Under the pieces are notes generated by a model. The model was given only the letters and a program-made list of their open reading frames with translations, did no database searches and was not told the DNA's origin. Positions 3,855-47,864 of a stretch of 64,000 nucleotides of DNA are shown piece after piece; position 1 is the stretch's first letter, and every line of letters starts with the position of its first letter. Where the stretch lies: positions 52,844-116,843 of the IMG/VR virus record IMGVR_UViG_3300048819_000142; one strand, 5' to 3'. The position numbers and the translations under genes are program-made. The stretch comes from a virus. Lineage: Duplodnaviria > Caudoviricetes.

Positions 3855-4018
3855 TTCTGTAAATCCAGGCCATACGTAATGATGACAACTATTCCTCTGT
3901 TTTTTAGGTCCGTGGCGATGTAGTCGGGCAACGGCTCCCTATCCCCAGATTTATGCTTGCCTCCATACGACGTTATATACTCAACAACGTGGTACAGGGT
4001 TTTAGAGTGCTTCTTCAT
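3851..4018 (-). CDS. Small hypothetical protein
   Basis: Fills the gap between primase and helicase with overlapping start/stop; start MKKHSK. Confidence 0.5.
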   Translation of the reverse strand: MKKHSKTLYHVVEYITSYGGKHKSGDREPLPDYIATDLKNRGIVVIITYGLDLQK

Positions 4019-21423: not shown

Positions 21424-22542
21424 TTACTTCGTCGAGATGACCTCGGCGAGCTGAACCGCCCTCTTGAGGGCAGAAGTCTTGGTTGCTGCTTTCGGACCAA
21501 ACCACGCGCTGTATATGGCGTTGTCGCGGTCGCGACCGGCGAGGTGGTCCGCATAATACGTTGTCGCGTTGAAGGCTCCCCAAAGAGTCCCCCTGGCCGA
21601 TTCCATCTCAGCACCGGGCTGGCGCTCGATTGCCTTGAACACGTCGTAAGCCGTCCGCTTGAATTGGTCGGGATTTATGCGGGGCGATGTGGGATCGACG
21701 ATGAGCTTGGCTTGGTCCGCCTCACTCTTCTTCGCATAACCTTTTCCGAATGCCTCAATCATCATTTCCGGTTGAAACACGTCTGCTACGTACCGGATGA
21801 CAACGTCATCGTCGATGACAGTCTTTGCCAGCTTGTTTGCCGTTGACTCGAATCCCTCGAAAAGCTCGCTCGCGATACCGAGGGATATCTGTGCCTGCTG
21901 AGCAGTTTCTCCGTCAAACGCCCGAATGTGCGGCATGCGAAAGCCCTTACCGTGCGAGGATTCGTTCATCGCCATCGTGAATGTGTTCATGCACACAACG
22001 CGAATGGTGACGAACTTAATGACGAACGACTTTCCCCAAATATGCGGAGAGCTCAACAACAGATAGCCATGCACTTCGTCCCCGCCGGGGAGGACGAACG
22101 ACTTCTTGAGCTTTGCGAGAACCCATACCTGTTTCCCATCCTGGAGCGACCCAGCTGTCTCCATGCGCATGTGTCCTGCGTCGGTGAATTTCTTGAAGAA
22201 GTTGAAGGCTTGCGCGTTCTGTATAGGAATGTAGTCCTTACCAGCAGGACCAAGTATCTTGTTGTCCGAGTCGCGAACAAGCGCGAAATAATCCGACACA
22301 GACAGGGAGGTTCCTCCCATATCAAGGTAACCCTTGAAGTCTTTCGCGTCGAAGCCTTCGATCGAGAGGGACGAGGTTGCGGGGGTGAACAGGGGGCGTT
22401 TGCTGACGGTCCAATTAAGTTCCGCTGCAACAAGCATTTCTTCGGGAGTGGCGTCGTGGTCGATGGGATTTCCCAGTCCGTGCCAGGGGACGCTTGCTTG
22501 TCCCTCGTGGCGGTACGCCATTGTTTCGACTTCATGCGGCAT
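21424..22542 (-). CDS. DUF932 family phage/plasmid protein
   Basis: M.HEVETMAY, PWHGLG, Y.P.QN..AF.F, ETAGSL..G..VW, IRVVC.NT, GTLWGAFNA.T.Y.DH. Confidence 0.88.
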   Translation of the reverse strand: MPHEVETMAYRHEGQASVPWHGLGNPIDHDATPEEMLVAAELNWTVSKRPLFTPATSSLSIEGFDAKDFKGYLDMGGTSLSVSDYFALVRDSDNKILGPAGKDYIPIQNAQAFNFFKKFTDAGHMRMETAGSLQDGKQVWVLAKLKKSFVLPGGDEVHGYLLLSSPHIWGKSFVIKFVTIRVVCMNTFTMAMNESSHGKGFRMPHIRAFDGETAQQAQISLGIASELFEGFESTANKLAKTVIDDDVVIRYVADVFQPEMMIEAFGKGYAKKSEADQAKLIVDPTSPRINPDQFKRTAYDVFKAIERQPGAEMESARGTLWGAFNATTYYADHLAGRDRDNAIYSAWFGPKAATKTSALKRAVQLAEVISTK

Positions 22543-22665: not shown

Positions 22666-22962
22666 CTACTTGAGGGTCTCTTCCAGCTCGGCGATCTCGC
22701 GATCCAGGTCCTGGCGCTTCTCTTCCGTCGTCTTCAGGGAGCTCCTGCGAGCTTTTGCTTCGGACAGCCGACGAGCCCGCTCATCGCGAACGCGAGCAGC
22801 GATCTCTCGATCCAGATCATTCACTGCGTTATTCAGCCAGTCGGGCTTATCGAGCTTCTGAGCTTCGTACTCGGCAAAAATAGCCCGAGCATTGGCTCTC
22901 AATTCGATTAGCTCCTCCACGCTGAACTTCGCCACGGTGAGTGTTTTGAGTTTCTCGATCAT
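22666..22962 (-). CDS. Small coiled-coil protein downstream of the Ro60/TROVE gene
   Basis: AAAGGAG RBS before MIEKLK; heptad-like charged C-terminus. Confidence 0.65.
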   Translation of the reverse strand: MIEKLKTLTVAKFSVEELIELRANARAIFAEYEAQKLDKPDWLNNAVNDLDREIAARVRDERARRLSEAKARRSSLKTTEEKRQDLDREIAELEETLK

Positions 22963-23035
22963 GTTCTTTCTCCTTTCCGTGGTGCGTTCCACCACATATT
23001 TCCCTTCAGGCGTCCTTCGCGTTGCACGCTTAGTT

Positions 23036-24514
23036 TCAGGCATGGGCGAGGTCCCTTGTTTCAAGCTTAAGGACGTCGGCCAAGGACAGCAGAGGCTGCT
23101 CCATGATCTCGTCCACGAGGCTGTACCGATTGGTCCTCATGGTCTCAACCATGTTGGGCAGCGAGTAGTAGTCAGCGGCGCTGGTGATCGGGAATTCATG
23201 CAGTTCCAGTCCCTCGCCGCTGCAATTGCTTGTGAGCACGTTCCGATCTCCGGGAACGTGGTAGAAGTACACAGGAACCTGACGATCAAGCATCTTCGTC
23301 AATTCCTTGTATGCTGTTGCGAATGCCGGCGGGTGGTTCTCGCCCCCGTCAGAAACGATTGCGATACCGTCCACCGCGAACTTTCGCTCAACAATGTATC
23401 GGCACCCGACACCGATAGACGTGCTGCCATTCGCCACCATTCTTGCTGTGATCTTCTGCACATCTTCAAGGGTCTTCCCAGTAACGTCAAAGTATGTGGG
23501 TGACGTATTGAAGAATACCAGGTGAACCCTTCCTTTTGCTACTCGGGCAAGCAGCGCAGAGAGCGACTTCGCTACTTCCATGGAAACTTGCATGGAGGAC
23601 GAAGCATCAGCCAGGACCAACCAGTCACCTTCAAGGGAGGTCTTGTCGAGCTTCTTTTCCTGCACAGCTCGAACCTTCTCCTTGAACTCGTCGTCGTCCA
23701 AAGCGTCTGCTGCCTGCGACAGTTTCATCACGTTCGATGTCCCAGTCGCGACTCGGCCAAGCGCTTTTTCGAGAGCGCCTCGAAGTGTTGGATCCTTGCG
23801 AATCCCAAGCTTCTCGAGCATCTTCATGTGTGAGGTAAGCTCAGCGGGAGTCATGCGGTCGATCATAGCTGCCAGGATGTTCTTGTCCTGGAGCTTTTTC
23901 CCAAGTGCGGGGGCAGCAATGAGGAACGGAATCTTCTTTGTGAGGACCGCTCCAGCTGCTTCAAGCCCGTCCATGATACTCAAGTTGGCAATGGTGTCGA
24001 ACACCGACCCTTTCGGTCGCCCTCCCTCGAATAAGACAGACTTGTTGAATTCGGCCGGCTTCACGCGGCAGAATGCATACAGTTCGTGCATGGTTCGCCT
24101 GTGCTGCACGATGGTCCTTGTCCACTTGCCTGGATTTGCCTCCATCGAGTGCAGGTATGCCTTTACCAGCTTAGGAACAGCTTGGCGACGACCTGCCATT
24201 GATTGGGTCTTGGCGAACCGGACTCCACGCAACAGGTCCCTCGGGGAGAGCAATGCCAGGTGCGCCTTGGCATTGTCCATCAAGACAGGATCGCCGTGTT
24301 CGCGGGAGATCATGCTCTCGAGGGAGATCAACGGTAGAGCAACCTTGGCGTCCCTGATCTGGCCCTTGCGTGCATTCCAAGCTACAAGGTGTGCGAAGAA
24401 TTCGGGATCTTCCCGAGCGGCTTGCCGACCGAGCGGCAAATATTCCTCAAGTTTACCGTGCGGCGATTTTGCCAGTTCTGCAAACACACTCTGCCTCGTC
24501 AGTCCCTGTTCCAT
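23036..24514 (-). CDS. Ro60/Rsr-like TROVE + vWA domain RNA-binding protein
   Basis: DPEFFAHL..W....IRD TROVE-like N-terminus, helical middle region, vWA MIDAS DASSSM...T...SDGGEN; GAGAGG RBS 6 nt before MEQGL. Confidence 0.8.
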   Translation of the reverse strand: MEQGLTRQSVFAELAKSPHGKLEEYLPLGRQAAREDPEFFAHLVAWNARKGQIRDAKVALPLISLESMISREHGDPVLMDNAKAHLALLSPRDLLRGVRFAKTQSMAGRRQAVPKLVKAYLHSMEANPGKWTRTIVQHRRTMHELYAFCRVKPAEFNKSVLFEGGRPKGSVFDTIANLSIMDGLEAAGAVLTKKIPFLIAAPALGKKLQDKNILAAMIDRMTPAELTSHMKMLEKLGIRKDPTLRGALEKALGRVATGTSNVMKLSQAADALDDDEFKEKVRAVQEKKLDKTSLEGDWLVLADASSSMQVSMEVAKSLSALLARVAKGRVHLVFFNTSPTYFDVTGKTLEDVQKITARMVANGSTSIGVGCRYIVERKFAVDGIAIVSDGGENHPPAFATAYKELTKMLDRQVPVYFYHVPGDRNVLTSNCSGEGLELHEFPITSAADYYSLPNMVETMRTNRYSLVDEIMEQPLLSLADVLKLETRDLAHA

Positions 24515-24539
24515 GATCATCCTCTCTCGTAAAATAGCA

Positions 24540-24561
24540 GCGGCCTCCGTGTGGAGGCCGC
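24540..24561 (-). terminator. Hairpin between the RNA array and the Ro60 gene
   Basis: GCGGCCTCC-ACAC-GGAGGCCGC followed by TGCTATTTT on the minus strand. Confidence 0.55.
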
Positions 24562-24570
24562 AGAAGCAAA

Positions 24571-24632
24571 TCGCGAAGTGTCGGTTAGTGCTTTCATGCA
24601 CCCAAAGCGTGTACACTAGCCAGTGTCCGCGA
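24571..24632 (-). ncRNA. Y-RNA-like unit 1 (short hairpin cargo)
   Basis: Scaffold CGG-ACAC-TGG-N6-TACAC...N6-CCG-ACACTT-CG. Confidence 0.7.
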
Positions 24633-24650
24633 AAACGCAGAAAAAATGAA

Positions 24651-24812
24651 ACGGCCCGATGTGTCGAAGTTCTAAAATTAGCTGAGCTAATCCCCCACAG
24701 ACCTCGCAAGGTCTCCCTCACGAAATCTGTGGGGGATCTTGGATTCGAACCAAGGACCATCAGCGGTGAAGCTGAGGCTCTATCCGTGTAAGAACGCCAG
24801 TAACCGGGCCGT
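24651..24812 (-). ncRNA. Y-RNA-like unit 2 carrying a tRNA circularly permuted at the D-loop
   Basis: Scaffold + GGATAGAGC, TCAGC/GCTGA arm, CTTGG-TTCGAAT-CCAAG T-arm, ATCCCCC...GGGGGAT acceptor stem, TAGCTCAG. Confidence 0.8.
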
Positions 24813-24820
24813 AAAATCAA

Positions 24821-24951
24821 CGAGCGATGTGTCGGCATACGTCACCAAACGGCCCCCGATAAGTTTGAATGGCGGGGGGCCCGGGTATGAGCCGGACTCC
24901 GGGTATCACTACCCGAATGTTTCTACGTGTATGTATTCCAGTAACCGCTCG
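24821..24951 (-). ncRNA. Y-RNA-like unit 3 carrying a degenerate permuted tRNA-like domain with internal CCA
   Basis: Scaffold + AAAC/GTTT D-stem, GNRA-capped arm, CCGG-CTCATAC-CCGG T-like arm, CCCCCC-G-CCA...GGGGG. Confidence 0.7.
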
Positions 24952-25037
24952 AACTTAAAAAGGGAGCTGGGCCGCCTCGTTGGCCGTGAGTTTGTTGCCT
25001 GAGCTCCCCGCATCGACAAATCTGTCGACGAAAACTT

Positions 25038-25161
25038 GTCCCCGAAATGTCTGCAAGCTGTTTCGCCTTACGGCGACGGCGGATTTGACCCGCAACCTTC
25101 TGATTAAGAGTCAGACGCTCTACAAGTGAGCTACGTGTAAGCTTACAAGTGTCCGGGGGAC
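25038..25161 (-). ncRNA. Y-RNA-like unit 4 carrying tRNA-Lys(CTT) D, anticodon and T arms
   Basis: Scaffold + TAGCTC-ACTTGTA-GAGC, TCTGA-CTCTTAA-TCAGA, AGGTT, GCGG-GTCAAAT-CCGC; no acceptor stem or CCA. Confidence 0.8.
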
Positions 25162-25174
25162 ACCATAATAACTT

Positions 25175-25249
25175 GATCCCGAAGAGTCGGTGTGCTATTT
25201 TTGTGCTGATAGATGGGATATCATGTAAGCACGCCAGTGTCCGGGAATC
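25175..25249 (-). ncRNA. Y-RNA-like unit 5 (short cargo)
   Basis: Scaffold CGG-ACAC-TGG-CGTGCT-TACAT...AGCACA-CCG-ACTCTT-CG. Confidence 0.7.
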
Positions 25250-25336
25250 GGAAACTTTTTCGCCGGGGGTTGCTATTGCCCGACAGCATTTCGATGTCTT
25301 GCTGAGTTGTTAAGCTCAGTTAGCTAACATATAATC

Positions 25337-25367
25337 ATTGTACAACAAGGATTGTCGGGTGTAACGG
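25337..25367 (-). promoter_or_regulatory. Phage CCG-N22-(-10) promoter upstream of the RNA array and Ro60 gene
   Basis: CCGTTACACCCGACAATCCTTGTTG-TACAAT. Confidence 0.7.
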
Positions 25368-25593
25368 ACAATTTTTCGGACAAAATCAATTCACTGTCTC
25401 GTAGCCCGGTAGACCCGGAAGACCTGCATCCCTCAAACTTGCATGCACGTTCGCCCTAACGTATGCCAAGACCTTACGTCGTTCTACCGAATCCTCAGAA
25501 GATAAAAGCAGTATGAATTCGGGAGCGCTCATGTGTAGCTCAATAACAAGGTCATCGAGCGTAGGAAGTTCAGTTGAGATATCCACCACCTTA

Positions 25594-47271: not shown

Positions 47272-47765
47272 ACTCCCCAGCCTTTCTGTTGCCAGGACTC
47301 GCCTGTCGGCGAGTGGCCGGGATACCCCGCTGTCCGCTGCTTATTAGGCTGCGGCTGCCATGGCGAAGGCCGGAGCCTGCGCCCTGACGGGCATGACTAC
47401 AAGATTGCTCTTGGCGTCTTTTGTTCACGCTGTTTGGGCCTCGAAGTCGAGCTATATCTCGCAAGCGAGCACGAACTCAACAACACTCAGCCTCGGTAGT
47501 CGTCTACCGCTTGTCTCCACAGTCATTTTCAGCCCCGTCGAAACCGTTCGCCCCCATAAGAAAAGTTATGGTGGAGGCGCCGGCATCCGAGAGCCGGGTC
47601 CGCAACTGATATTTTCTGCTTCAACGACAAGATCAATCTTTTTCTTCGCTCGATAGTCCTGCATAAGACTTGAGTGCGCTGTTCCCTGGACCACTACCCA
47701 GGGATATGAAGGTTCGGAGTTGTCTTTTGCAGACTTGCACTGTTCCGAACCACCCGCCGGGGAAC
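47272..47765 (-). ncRNA. ssrA: Circularly permuted (two-piece) tmRNA; tag (A)AKSNLVVMPVRAQAPAFAMAAAA
   Basis: Acceptor piece ends ...GCCGGCGCCTCCACCA at 47569; 13-nt spacer; coding piece starts GGGGGCGAACGGTTTCGAC at 47555; G3-U70 pair; P2 pairing GACAAG/CTTGTC; tag ORF 47415-47341 ends AAAA then TAA TAA; outer ends approximate. Confidence 0.9.
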
Positions 47766-47787
47766 TGCCAAGTAACCCGACAAACTT

Positions 47788-47864
47788 TGGTTGTCCCGGC
47801 CAGACTCGAACTGGCGACCTCTTGCTTAGGAGGCGAGCGCTCTATCCAGCTGAGCTACGGGACA
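47788..47864 (-). tRNA. tRNA-Arg (CCT)
   Basis: TGTCCCG/CGGGACA acceptor stem, GCTC/GAGC D-arm, CTCCTAA anticodon loop, TTCGAGT T-loop, encoded CCA. Confidence 0.92.

What the first reader, a model, noticed from the sequence alone, without database searches (positions are those of the whole stretch)
23036..25367. Ro60/TROVE gene downstream of an array of five modular Y-like RNAs sharing one scaffold but carrying different tRNA-derived cargo
Seen: on the minus strand a promoter (25337-25367) is followed by five self-closing units (25175-25249, 25038-25161, 24821-24951, 24651-24812, 24571-24632), a hairpin (24540-24561) and a TROVE+vWA gene. Every unit reads [outer stem]-CGG-(A/U)(C/U)AC-U(G/U)G-N6-UACA(C/U)-[cargo]-N5-6-(C/U)(C/A)G-AC-N3-U-CG-[outer stem]. 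The outer stems and N6 helices differ in sequence yet pair (UAAGCU/AGCUUG, GUUCU/AGAAC, UAGUG/CACUA, GUGCU/AGCAC). The U-G wobble only works on the minus strand. Cargo: two short hairpins and three tRNA bodies. Established: Ro60/Rsr binds Y RNAs, and bacterial YrlA is a tRNA mimic in which the Ro-binding stem takes the place of the anticodon arm. Inference: this is a plug-and-play Ro RNP system with a constant docking stem and interchangeable tRNA-mimic effectors. Unlike YrlA the anticodon arm is kept and the tRNA is opened at the D-loop or acceptor stem, and the internal-loop motif does not match the classic Y-RNA bulged-C helix. Possible roles are decoying host anticodon nucleases or steering RNA repair/decay enzymes.
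Basis: partly seen in the sequence, partly recalled or inferred. Interest (0 to 1): 0.95.

Follow-up and report, generated by a model that had tools for sequence, protein, structure and literature searches.

The report
Phage Ro60 gene with Y-RNA array
A 117-kb soil phage encodes a very divergent Ro60 ring protein preceded by five small RNAs that share one docking stem but carry different tRNA-like or hairpin heads; this is a large, previously unrecognised phage branch of the known Ro60-Y RNA system, not a new kind of machine.

Summary
Five self-closing units lie on the minus strand at the stated coordinates, between a promoter-like site and a terminator-like hairpin, upstream of a 492-aa gene. 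Pfam TROVE misses the protein, but its model matches Ro60 over its full length (Z 20 to human Ro60, 19.5 to Deinococcus Rsr). The shared scaffold recurs 3-7 times upstream of the homologous gene in most of 55 non-redundant IMG/VR phage loci. It is strictly strand-specific (167 versus 2 motif hits) and shows strong covariation (87% of cells paired versus 54% shuffled). Rfam's YrlA model aligns full-length, but below threshold (30-57 bits; cut-off 69), to permuted-tRNA units in related loci. So the scaffold is a diverged YrlA-type Ro60-binding stem that lacks the canonical GNCGAA motif.

Cargo falls into recurrent classes:
- Unit 4 is a YrlA-like permuted tRNA.
- Unit 2 is a normal-order tRNA body with an anticodon arm, as in Deinococcus Yrn1.
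- Unit 3 is an acceptor/CCA minihelix.
- Units 1 and 5 are short hairpins.

Ro60 genes with upstream modular Y RNAs, including in phages, are already published. I class this as a new variant of a known kind. Binding and function are untested.

The parts
25337..25365 (-). sigma-70-like promoter candidate for the RNA array (GTTACA-17-TACAAT)
   Evidence: consensus match only, 9 of 12 positions
25175..25249 (-). Unit 1: scaffold plus a short hairpin cargo. It looks like a deletion remnant of the tRNA-Gly-like cargo of the matching unit in L001.
   Evidence: z -3.3; model R1 63.6 bits, E 1e-17, though this unit was in the training set; compared with L001 3428-3547
25038..25161 (-). Unit 2: scaffold plus a normal-order tRNA body (D arm, anticodon arm with loop CUCUUAA, degenerate T arm), a 3-bp acceptor remnant and a GUAA-capped hairpin. 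There is no 7-bp acceptor stem and no CCA.
   Evidence: Rfam tRNA 43.3 bits at 25076-25136, model positions 5-66 of 71; ARAGORN calls no tRNA here; fold z -3.5; 17 matching units in other loci
24957..25030 (-). Spacer between units 2 and 3: an 8-bp hairpin (25030-25011), then an 8-bp stem (25009-24961) followed by a U run. This may be an internal terminator or processing site.
   Evidence: z -2.3; inference only
24821..24951 (-). Unit 3: scaffold, GNRA-capped 8-bp hairpin, T-like arm, acceptor-like 6-7-bp stem whose first strand is followed by G-CCA; no D arm
   Evidence: z -2.2; read by eye. The same acceptor/ACCA-between-hairpins class is seen in L011, L040, L024, L026, L045 and L004. No covariance-model support.
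24651..24812 (-). Unit 4: scaffold plus a YrlA-type permuted tRNA (hairpin with 6-nt loop, canonical T arm GGUUCGAAUCC, 22-bp acceptor-like hairpin, UA, truncated D arm)
   Evidence: family model R2 33.9 bits, E 2e-6, full length 24653-24810; Rfam tRNA 14.6 bits on the T-arm part; fold z -7.9
24571..24632 (-). Unit 5: scaffold plus a short hairpin (YrlB-like minimal unit)
   Evidence: model R1 54.8 bits, though this unit was in the training set; matching unit in L001 at 3857-3925; fold z -1.9
24531..24561 (-). GC-rich 9-bp hairpin plus U-rich tail: terminator-like end of the RNA array. An equivalent hairpin is present in L001.
   Evidence: (z -4.1)
23036..24514 (-). Ro60-like gene (492 aa, P0001): HEAT-repeat ring plus vWA domain with intact MIDAS residues
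   Evidence: AF2 pLDDT 87; Foldseek top 12 hits all Ro60, E 1e-9 to 1e-7; VIA Z 20.0/19.5/18.5 over 408-437 residues; D303, S305, S307, T365 and D389 invariant in 50 homologues; Pfam TROVE not matched
22666..23043 (-). Conserved small helical, basic protein (P0122, about 100-125 aa). Its ATG overlaps the Ro60 stop codon, so it may be a partner protein.
   Evidence: homologue directly downstream in 59 of 65 loci; no Pfam, PHROG or Atlas lead

Best explanation
This is a phage-encoded Ro60-Y RNA ribonucleoprotein system of a diverged, previously unrecognised clade. The array is transcribed from its own promoter and ends at a hairpin terminator before the Ro60 gene. It is probably cut in the A/U-rich linkers into five small RNAs. 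Each RNA closes with the same module. That module is a 6-7-bp outer stem, an internal loop (5' N-A-C, 3' A-C-U/A-N), and a 9-bp helix that begins with an almost invariant U.G wobble. It ends in a single-stranded UACA(U/C)G junction. This module is the diverged counterpart of the YrlA Ro60-binding stem and is the docking site for the ring protein encoded just downstream. The variable heads are effector modules. They include a Yrn1-like tRNA body that shows an anticodon arm (unit 2), a YrlA-like permuted tRNA (unit 4) and an acceptor/CCA minihelix (unit 3). Two minimal hairpins (units 1 and 5) complete the set. By analogy with Y RNAs that tether Ro60 to PNPase, the heads would tether or gate the Ro60 ring and link it to enzymes that recognise tRNA shapes during infection. 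What is shown: fold, RNA structure, conservation, gene linkage and homology to YrlA. What is inferred: binding, processing and the downstream function.
For: Protein. The model matches Ro60 over its full length (Z 20.0 to human Ro60, 19.5 to D. radiodurans Rsr, 18.5 to Thermus phage phiLo Ro60). The MIDAS residues are invariant. Ten of 50 homologues hit Pfam vWA_Ro60. RNA. In 26 short-cargo units 86.8% of cells pair against 53.6% in shuffles, the covariation score is 0.81 against 0.19, and 15 of 16 pairs show compensatory changes. Slid controls give 30-46% paired, and the U.G wobble is present in 25 of 26. In a motif-only test, the 3' partner chosen by the outer stem alone gives at least 7 of 8 inner-helix pairs in 85 of 135 units, against about 13 of 135 with swapped partners. 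Linkage. There are 167 5'-motifs upstream on the gene strand against 2 antisense, and 2 and 3 downstream, in 55 non-redundant loci. An RNA-first scan of IMG/VR gave 11 real units, all on contigs that carry the gene. For the eight loci that included the gene region this was confirmed by tblastn; the other three are contigs already found. The remaining 3 hits were unpaired matches that look like coding sequence. Homology. Rfam YrlA aligns over positions 1-114 to units in L053 (57.3 bits), L024, L045, L016 and L005. Family model R2 finds 137 matches at E<=0.001, all on the gene strand, including window unit 4. Precedent. YrlA and YrlB are cut from one precursor upstream of rsr, and YrlA-like RNAs occur in phages (PMC4201824). 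Phage phiLo Ro60 binds two upstream Yrl RNAs and PNPase (PMC12135203).
Against: No transcription, processing or binding data exist for this clade. The sequence motif that known Ro60 proteins contact (GGUCCGA or GNCGAAN0-1G on the 5' strand) is absent. Pfam TROVE does not match any of 50 homologues. Window units get no Rfam YrlA hit at E<=10. A conserved small protein downstream could be the RNA binder, or a co-binder. This phage has only two tRNAs and no RtcB or RNA-ligase Pfam match, so the RNA-repair context known from Salmonella is not seen here.
Confidence: 0.8

Rival explanations
1. Decoy reading, a rival at the level of function. The tRNA-like heads, held and stabilised by Ro60, act mainly as decoys or sensors for host nucleases and toxins that attack tRNAs. 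They would not serve as tethers to an exoribonuclease.
For: Unit 2 and 17 matching units keep a perfect 5-bp anticodon stem and a 7-nt loop. The arm sequence varies (about 50% identity) whereas the D arm is 99% identical. Loops include several A34 anticodons (AAU, AAA, AUA), which from general knowledge are unusual for decoding tRNAs. In about 20 of 48 loci the gene sits inside a large phage tRNA array. Such arrays are widely thought to offset host attack on tRNAs (general knowledge).
Against: There is no direct evidence. Anticodon-arm variation could equally be neutral drift under a purely structural constraint. The most conserved heads (YrlA type) have no anticodon loop. No known counter-defence gene is linked.
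Confidence: 0.15
2. The scaffold is a processing cassette for tRNAs and tRNA-like RNAs. Leader and trailer would pair and be recognised by an RNase, and the closeness to the Ro60-like gene would be incidental.
For: Some units in relatives embed complete tRNAs with a 7-bp acceptor stem and an encoded CCA. Examples are L053 3443-3515 (Rfam tRNA 64 bits, positions 1-71), L010 2400 and L031 2128. M. smegmatis YrlA is cut by RNase P (PMC4201824).
Against: Ordinary tRNAs in the adjoining arrays lack the scaffold (2 and 3 motif hits in 184 kb downstream). More than a quarter of units carry only a short hairpin (27 of 93). The conserved unpaired nucleotides and the U.G wobble point to protein recognition. 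All real units found by the RNA-first scan sit next to the gene.
Confidence: 0.05
3. The array is a cis-acting leader (attenuator or riboregulator) that controls expression of the Ro60-like gene, not a set of trans-acting RNAs.
For: It lies directly upstream on the same strand and ends in a terminator-like hairpin 26 nt before the start codon.
Against: There are five independent, self-closing modules, and unit number varies from 1 to 7 between relatives. In some loci other genes, such as an HNH-type ORF, lie between array and gene. The units are homologous to the trans-acting YrlA.
Confidence: 0.03
4. The units are decaying tRNA pseudogenes or repeat debris with no function.
For: Unit 1 looks like a deletion derivative of a tRNA-bearing unit in L001. 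Unit 3 and the D arm of unit 4 are degenerate.
Against: Compensatory changes keep both scaffold helices across phages whose proteins are only 40-60% identical. The units are strictly strand-specific. The T arm and 7-bp acceptor stem covary in the YrlA-type units (26 of 29 pairs compensatory).
Confidence: 0.02

Closest known systems
YrlA (Rfam RF02553), Y RNA-like A of Salmonella, Mycobacterium smegmatis and mycobacteriophages
   Same: Encoded just upstream of Ro60 on the same strand. The 5' and 3' ends form a 6-bp outer stem, an internal loop and a 7-9-bp helix, followed by a YUAY junction. The head is a permuted tRNA (hairpin, T arm, acceptor stem-loop, UA, D arm). Relatives have a 7-bp acceptor stem as in M. 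smegmatis, several with an encoded ACCA. The Rfam model aligns full-length to sister units.
   Different: Scores stay below the gathering threshold (30-57 against 69 bits), and the window units get no hit. The GNCGAAN0-1G motif is replaced by N-AC-UG...UACAYG on the 5' strand and CG-ACU on the 3' strand. Window unit 4 has a 22-bp acceptor hairpin and a truncated D arm. The partner protein is not recognised by Pfam TROVE.
Deinococcus radiodurans Yrn1
   Same: As described in PMC4201824, the Ro60-binding stem occupies the acceptor position and a potential anticodon arm lies between D-like and T elements. Unit 2 and its 17 counterparts show this orientation.
   Different: Unit 2 has a full canonical D arm and a 7-nt anticodon loop (Yrn1 has 6 nt and only partial D features), plus an extra GNRA-capped hairpin. 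It shares its binding stem with YrlA-type units in the same array, whereas the paper argued that Yrn1 and YrlA evolved separately.
Thermus phage phiLo Ro60 with Yrl1/Yrl2 (PDB 9KOP, 9L5Y; PMC12135203)
   Same: A phage-encoded Ro60 with Y-like RNAs directly upstream. The structures are among the best matches (Z 18.5 and 16.7).
   Different: phiLo has two RNAs defined by a CGAA motif and a stem-bulge-stem shape. Here there are five (up to seven in relatives), without CGAA, most with tRNA-derived heads. Protein identity is 15-16%.
YrlB / Yrn2 (short hairpin Y RNAs)
   Same: Units 1 and 5 are minimal stem-plus-hairpin RNAs that accompany a tRNA-like Y RNA in one transcript.
   Different: This is a resemblance in architecture only. 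No sequence or model comparison was possible.

Membership tests
Ro60 / TROVE protein family | Match to the Pfam TROVE domain (PF05731) | tested here: not met
   No TROVE hit for P0001 at E<=0.1, for any of 50 homologues, or in the whole phage genome.
Ro60 / TROVE protein family | HEAT-repeat ring followed by a vWA domain (Ro60 fold) | tested here: met
   AF2 pLDDT 87. Z 20.0 (rmsd 3.9, 433 residues aligned) to human Ro60 and 19.5 to Rsr. All top-10 entries are Ro60; vWA-only hits follow at Z below 15.
Ro60 / TROVE protein family | MIDAS motif DxSxS...T...D in the vWA domain | tested here: met
   D303, S305, S307, T365 and D389 are invariant in 50 homologues.
Ro60 / TROVE protein family | Ro60-specific vWA profile (Pfam PF25045) | tested here: inconclusive
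   10 of 50 homologues match (best E 4.5e-5), but the window protein does not.
Ro60 / TROVE protein family | Binds Y RNAs through a conserved stem | not testable with these tools
   Needs EMSA or pull-down. Only gene-RNA linkage is shown.
YrlA (Rfam RF02553) | Score at or above the gathering threshold (69 bits) | tested here: not met
   No hit on the window units at E<=10. Sister units in seven related loci score 30-57 bits.
YrlA (Rfam RF02553) | Terminal stem, internal loop, helix, YUAY architecture, encoded next to Ro60 | tested here: met
   Full-length alignment of the Rfam model to L053 3575-3702 places each element. The same scaffold is in all five window units.
YrlA (Rfam RF02553) | GNCGAAN0-1G motif near the 5' end (PMC4201824) | tested here: not met
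   No GNCGAAN0-1G or GGUCCGA anywhere in 24515-25400(-). CGAA occurs only outside the scaffold strands.
YrlA (Rfam RF02553) | tRNA-like head in the order T arm, acceptor stem-loop, D arm | tested here: inconclusive
   Unit 4 has the T arm and acceptor hairpin aligned by model R2 (33.9 bits), but the D arm is truncated. The order is fully met in 16 sister units, where 26 of 29 pairs are compensatory.
Functional tRNA gene | 7-bp acceptor stem with discriminator/CCA end and a full cloverleaf | tested here: not met
   ARAGORN calls nothing in the array. The Rfam tRNA hit on unit 2 covers positions 5-66 only. Some units in relatives do meet this feature.

The most novel reading that the evidence does not exclude
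The array is a phage counter-defence 'rack' of tRNA look-alikes. One Ro60 ring protein holds several tRNA-shaped baits: an anticodon-arm bait whose sequence turns over quickly, a permuted tRNA, and an acceptor/CCA minihelix. These baits would capture, misdirect or report on host enzymes that cut or modify tRNAs during infection. That would give Ro60-Y RNA particles a defined role in virus-host conflict.
Probability: 0.15. Interest if true: 0.85.

Novelty: new variant of a known kind. Interest (0 to 1): 0.6.

Why it matters
Ro60 and Y RNAs are conserved from bacteria to humans, yet what the RNA heads do is still largely open. This clade includes at least 834 related proteins at E<=0.001 and more than 55 non-redundant phage loci. 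It is almost absent from cellular genomes: only 6 MAG contigs among 185,579 species. It is also absent from cultured phages. Pfam TROVE and the Rfam YrlA threshold both miss it, so earlier surveys anchored on TROVE would not have seen it. The clade shows Y-RNA modularity in an extreme and natural form. One binding stem carries four recurrent head types, and both the 'YrlA' and 'Yrn1' tRNA topologies sit side by side. It often lies inside phage tRNA arrays. That offers ready-made swap experiments on what each head recruits. It also suggests that the two tRNA-like Y RNA designs can arise on a single scaffold.

Tried and rejected
Context came from the search for related loci instead.
- Model R1, built from short-cargo units, finds only units 1 and 5 in the window. 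Large cargo insertions defeat it. Long units were therefore handled with motif-anchored scripts and with model R2.
- Rfam gave no Y_RNA or YrlA hit on the window.
- Sequence searches of P0001 against PDB gave only E about 0.03, to the phiLo TROVE protein.
- NCBIfam gave nothing. PHROG 850 'RNA-binding protein' matched only the vWA part.
- RtcB and RNA-ligase Pfam families are absent from the phage, so an RNA-repair operon context is not supported here.
- P0122 got no lead from Pfam, PHROGs, the Atlas or the homologue search.
- The only GenBank phage hit is a 595-kb uncultured phage at 26% identity. It has tRNAs upstream but no convincing scaffold unit.
- Two review articles (PMC10870794, PMC6047535) are not held.
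- Bulge-helix-bulge, kink-turn, CRISPR repeat and mobile-repeat readings of the scaffold were considered and dropped by inspecting the sequence and folds. The loops are opposed rather than staggered, there are no tandem G.A pairs, and the helices covary.
Full report
**What is in the window**

On the minus strand, 25365-24531 holds a promoter-like site (GTTACA-17-TACAAT). After an 87-nt leader come five units at 25249-25175, 25161-25038, 24951-24821, 24812-24651 and 24632-24571. A GC-rich hairpin with a U-rich tail follows at 24561-24531. A 492-aa gene starts at 24514.

The pattern ACTK-N7-TACAYG occurs five times in 64 kb, only here and only on this strand, against 0.3 expected. Unconstrained folding closes every unit the same way. 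There is an outer stem, then a 3x4 internal loop. A 3-bp helix starting with U.G, a 1x1 mismatch and a 5-bp helix follow, and then the cargo. The z-scores run from -1.9 to -7.9.

**The protein**

Pfam sees only a vWA domain (VWA_CoxE, E 5e-6). There is no TROVE match for this protein, for any of 50 homologues, or anywhere in the phage genome. An AlphaFold2 model built on 50 homologues (pLDDT 87, pTM 0.72) nevertheless matches Ro60 structures along its whole length.
- The top 12 Foldseek hits are all Ro60, with E from 1e-9 to 1e-7.
- VIA-align gives Z 20.0 to human Ro60 (433 residues, rmsd 3.9), 19.5 to D. radiodurans Rsr and 18.5 to Thermus phage phiLo Ro60.
- vWA-only hits follow below Z 15.
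- The MIDAS residues D303, S305, S307, T365 and D389 are invariant.
- Ten of 50 homologues touch Pfam vWA_Ro60.

It is a Ro60-fold protein of a clade that sequence profiles miss.

**The family**

The window is the 3' part of a 116,843-bp IMG/VR virus record rated 100% complete. Homologues number at least 834.
- Sixty-five IMG/VR loci were fetched.
- Only six contigs among 185,579 prokaryote species genomes carry the gene. All are MAGs and four are Acidobacteriota.
- No cultured phage carries it. The single GenBank phage hit is a 595-kb uncultured phage at 26% identity.

In about 20 of 48 loci the gene sits inside a large same-strand tRNA array. This phage itself has only two tRNAs and a permuted tmRNA.

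**The RNA scaffold is a conserved, structured family**

Upstream regions are enriched for UACAUG and for tRNA D- and T-arm words. The consensus is [outer stem]-N-AC-UG-N-[5 bp]-UACA(U/C)G ... [5 bp]-N-CG-ACU-N-[outer stem].
- The strict 5' motif ACUG-N7-UACAYG occurs 125 times on the gene strand and never on the other strand in 563 kb.
- With a relaxed motif there are 167 hits upstream on the gene strand and 2 antisense, against 2 and 3 downstream, in 55 non-redundant loci. Loci carry 1-7 units.

A test free of circularity supports the pairing. When the 3' partner is chosen by outer-stem pairing alone, the inner helices pair at 7 or more of 8 positions in 85 of 135 units. With swapped partners the figure is about 13 of 135.

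On an alignment of 26 short-cargo units, 86.8% of cells pair against 53.6% in shuffles. The covariation score is 0.81 against 0.19, slid controls give 30-46%, and 15 of 16 pairs show compensatory changes. The U.G wobble is present in 25 of 26.

**Linkage tested from the RNA side**

A scan of all IMG/VR for a 21-base split pattern of the scaffold returned 14 stretches. Eleven are real units, and all lie on contigs that carry the Ro60-like gene. tblastn confirmed the gene in the eight loci that reached it, including one contig not seen before. The other three are contigs already listed. The remaining three stretches lack outer-stem pairing and look like coding sequence.

**Relation to known Y RNAs**

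Rfam has a YrlA model (RF02553, gathering score 69 bits). It gives no hit on the window units even at E<=10. It does align over its whole length to units in related loci:
- L053 3575-3702 at 57.3 bits (E 2e-12 when searched alone);
- L024 at 49 bits, L045 at 42.7, L016 at 40.9 and L005 at 40.9;
- partial hits in L026 and L041.

The alignment places our outer stem on the YrlA outer stem and our AC-UG...helix on the YrlA 7-bp helix. Our UUAC falls on the conserved YUAY, and our 3' ACU on the model's 'AcU'.

The motif that Chen et al. 2014 tie to Ro60 recognition, GNCGAAN0-1G (vertebrate GGUCCGA), is absent from the array (PMC4201824). So the scaffold is a diverged homologue of the YrlA Ro60-binding module, and both partners have drifted.

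An alignment of 16 YrlA-type units gives an RNAalifold structure with scaffold, T arm, 7-bp acceptor stem and D arm, in which 26 of 29 pairs are compensatory. The model built from it (R2) finds 137 matches at E<=0.001 in 59 loci, all on the gene strand. Thirty-four loci have a match above 70 bits. R2 also matches window unit 4 at 33.9 bits, E 2e-6, full length.

**Cargo classes**

Among 93 cleanly paired units there are 27 short hairpins, 19 tRNA bodies in normal D-to-T order, 14 clear permuted T-to-D units, 20 with a T arm only (many of them permuted units with a degenerate D arm) and 13 others.

- **Window unit 2** belongs to the normal-order class. It has a D arm, a 5-bp anticodon stem with the 7-nt loop CUCUUAA, a degenerate T arm, a 3-bp acceptor remnant and a GNRA-type hairpin (Rfam tRNA 43.3 bits, positions 5-66). 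Across 18 such units the D arm is 99% identical and the T arm 71%. The anticodon stem and loop are only 50-56% identical, yet the stems stay paired. Loops include A34 'anticodons' and suppressor-like ones. Some relatives embed complete tRNAs with an encoded CCA. With the Ro stem at the acceptor position, this layout is what Chen et al. describe for Deinococcus Yrn1.
- **Unit 4** has the YrlA order, with a 22-bp acceptor hairpin and a truncated D arm.
- **Unit 3** matches a recurrent class in which an acceptor-like stem followed by N-CCA sits between capped hairpins. This rests on inspection only.
- **Unit 1** looks like a deletion remnant of the tRNA-Gly-like unit of L001.
- **Unit 5** is a minimal hairpin.

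**Mechanism**

The best-supported reading is a Ro60-Y RNA particle system. The ring protein docks on the shared stem and the heads act as effector modules.
- Shown here: the fold, the RNA structure, the conservation, the linkage and the homology to YrlA.
- From the literature: Y RNAs tether Ro60 to PNPase; YrlA and YrlB are cut from one precursor upstream of rsr; M. smegmatis YrlA, with its 7-bp acceptor stem, is cut by RNase P and receives CCA (PMC4201824); phage phiLo Ro60 binds two upstream Yrl RNAs and host PNPase (PMC12135203).
- Inferred: binding in this clade, cutting in the A/U-rich linkers, and the partners of each head.

The decoy idea remains possible, but only indirect evidence supports it (variable anticodon arms, tRNA-array context). 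This phage has no RtcB or RNA-ligase Pfam match.

**Verdict**

It is a new, large phage branch of a known system rather than a new category. The new elements are:
- the divergence of both protein and docking motif;
- arrays of up to seven units;
- YrlA-type, Yrn1-type and minihelix heads together on one scaffold;
- a conserved small partner gene.

Noticed in passing
window 22666-23043 (-): A small basic, helical ORF (P0122) has an ATG that overlaps the Ro60 stop codon (ATGCCTGA). It is conserved directly downstream in 59 of 65 loci and has no known family. It may be a partner in the particle. Gene callers often start it at the later Met (22962), which has a GGAG site upstream.
   Followed up: partly
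window 24957-25030 (-): The spacer between units 2 and 3 holds an 8-bp hairpin and then an 8-bp stem followed by a U run. The array may be two transcription or processing blocks (units 1-2 and units 3-5).
   Followed up: partly
window 47344-47864 (-): A phage-encoded permuted (two-piece) tmRNA (Rfam RF04321, 72 bits) lies next to tRNA-Arg(CCU). Related locus L040 also has a permuted tmRNA near its Ro60 locus (ARAGORN, 31-443).
   Followed up: no
L010 2400-2496, L030 2702-2775, L045 1825-1917, L022 8996-9071, L018 358-432: Relatives carry tRNA-like genes with stop-codon-reading anticodons (UCA, UUA, CUA). Some of them (L010, L030, L045) are embedded in the Ro-binding scaffold. They may be suppressor tRNAs or mimics.
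   Followed up: no
L011 2710-2849, L040 3260-3397, L024 3207-3329, L026 3743-3860: A recurrent unit class in which an acceptor-type stem followed by ACCA, with its loop, sits between two GNRA-capped hairpins. It is a minihelix with an internal CCA that could be a substrate for RNase P or the CCA-adding enzyme.
   Followed up: partly
window 21424-22542 (-): A DUF932 protein (Pfam E 2e-37; PHROG 1221) lies two genes downstream of the Ro60-like gene. It is not conserved next to the gene in the other loci (1 of 65).
   Followed up: no
L087 (LR756511.1 281762-291216): A 595-kb uncultured phage encodes a 26%-identical relative of the Ro60-like protein with four tRNA hits upstream on the same strand. 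No convincing scaffold unit was found there.
   Followed up: partly
L041 3700-3960, L024 2302-2440: HNH-type endonuclease ORFs lie between or beside the Y-RNA arrays and the Ro60-like gene in some relatives. This fits the locus being part of a mobile-prone tRNA-array region.
   Followed up: no
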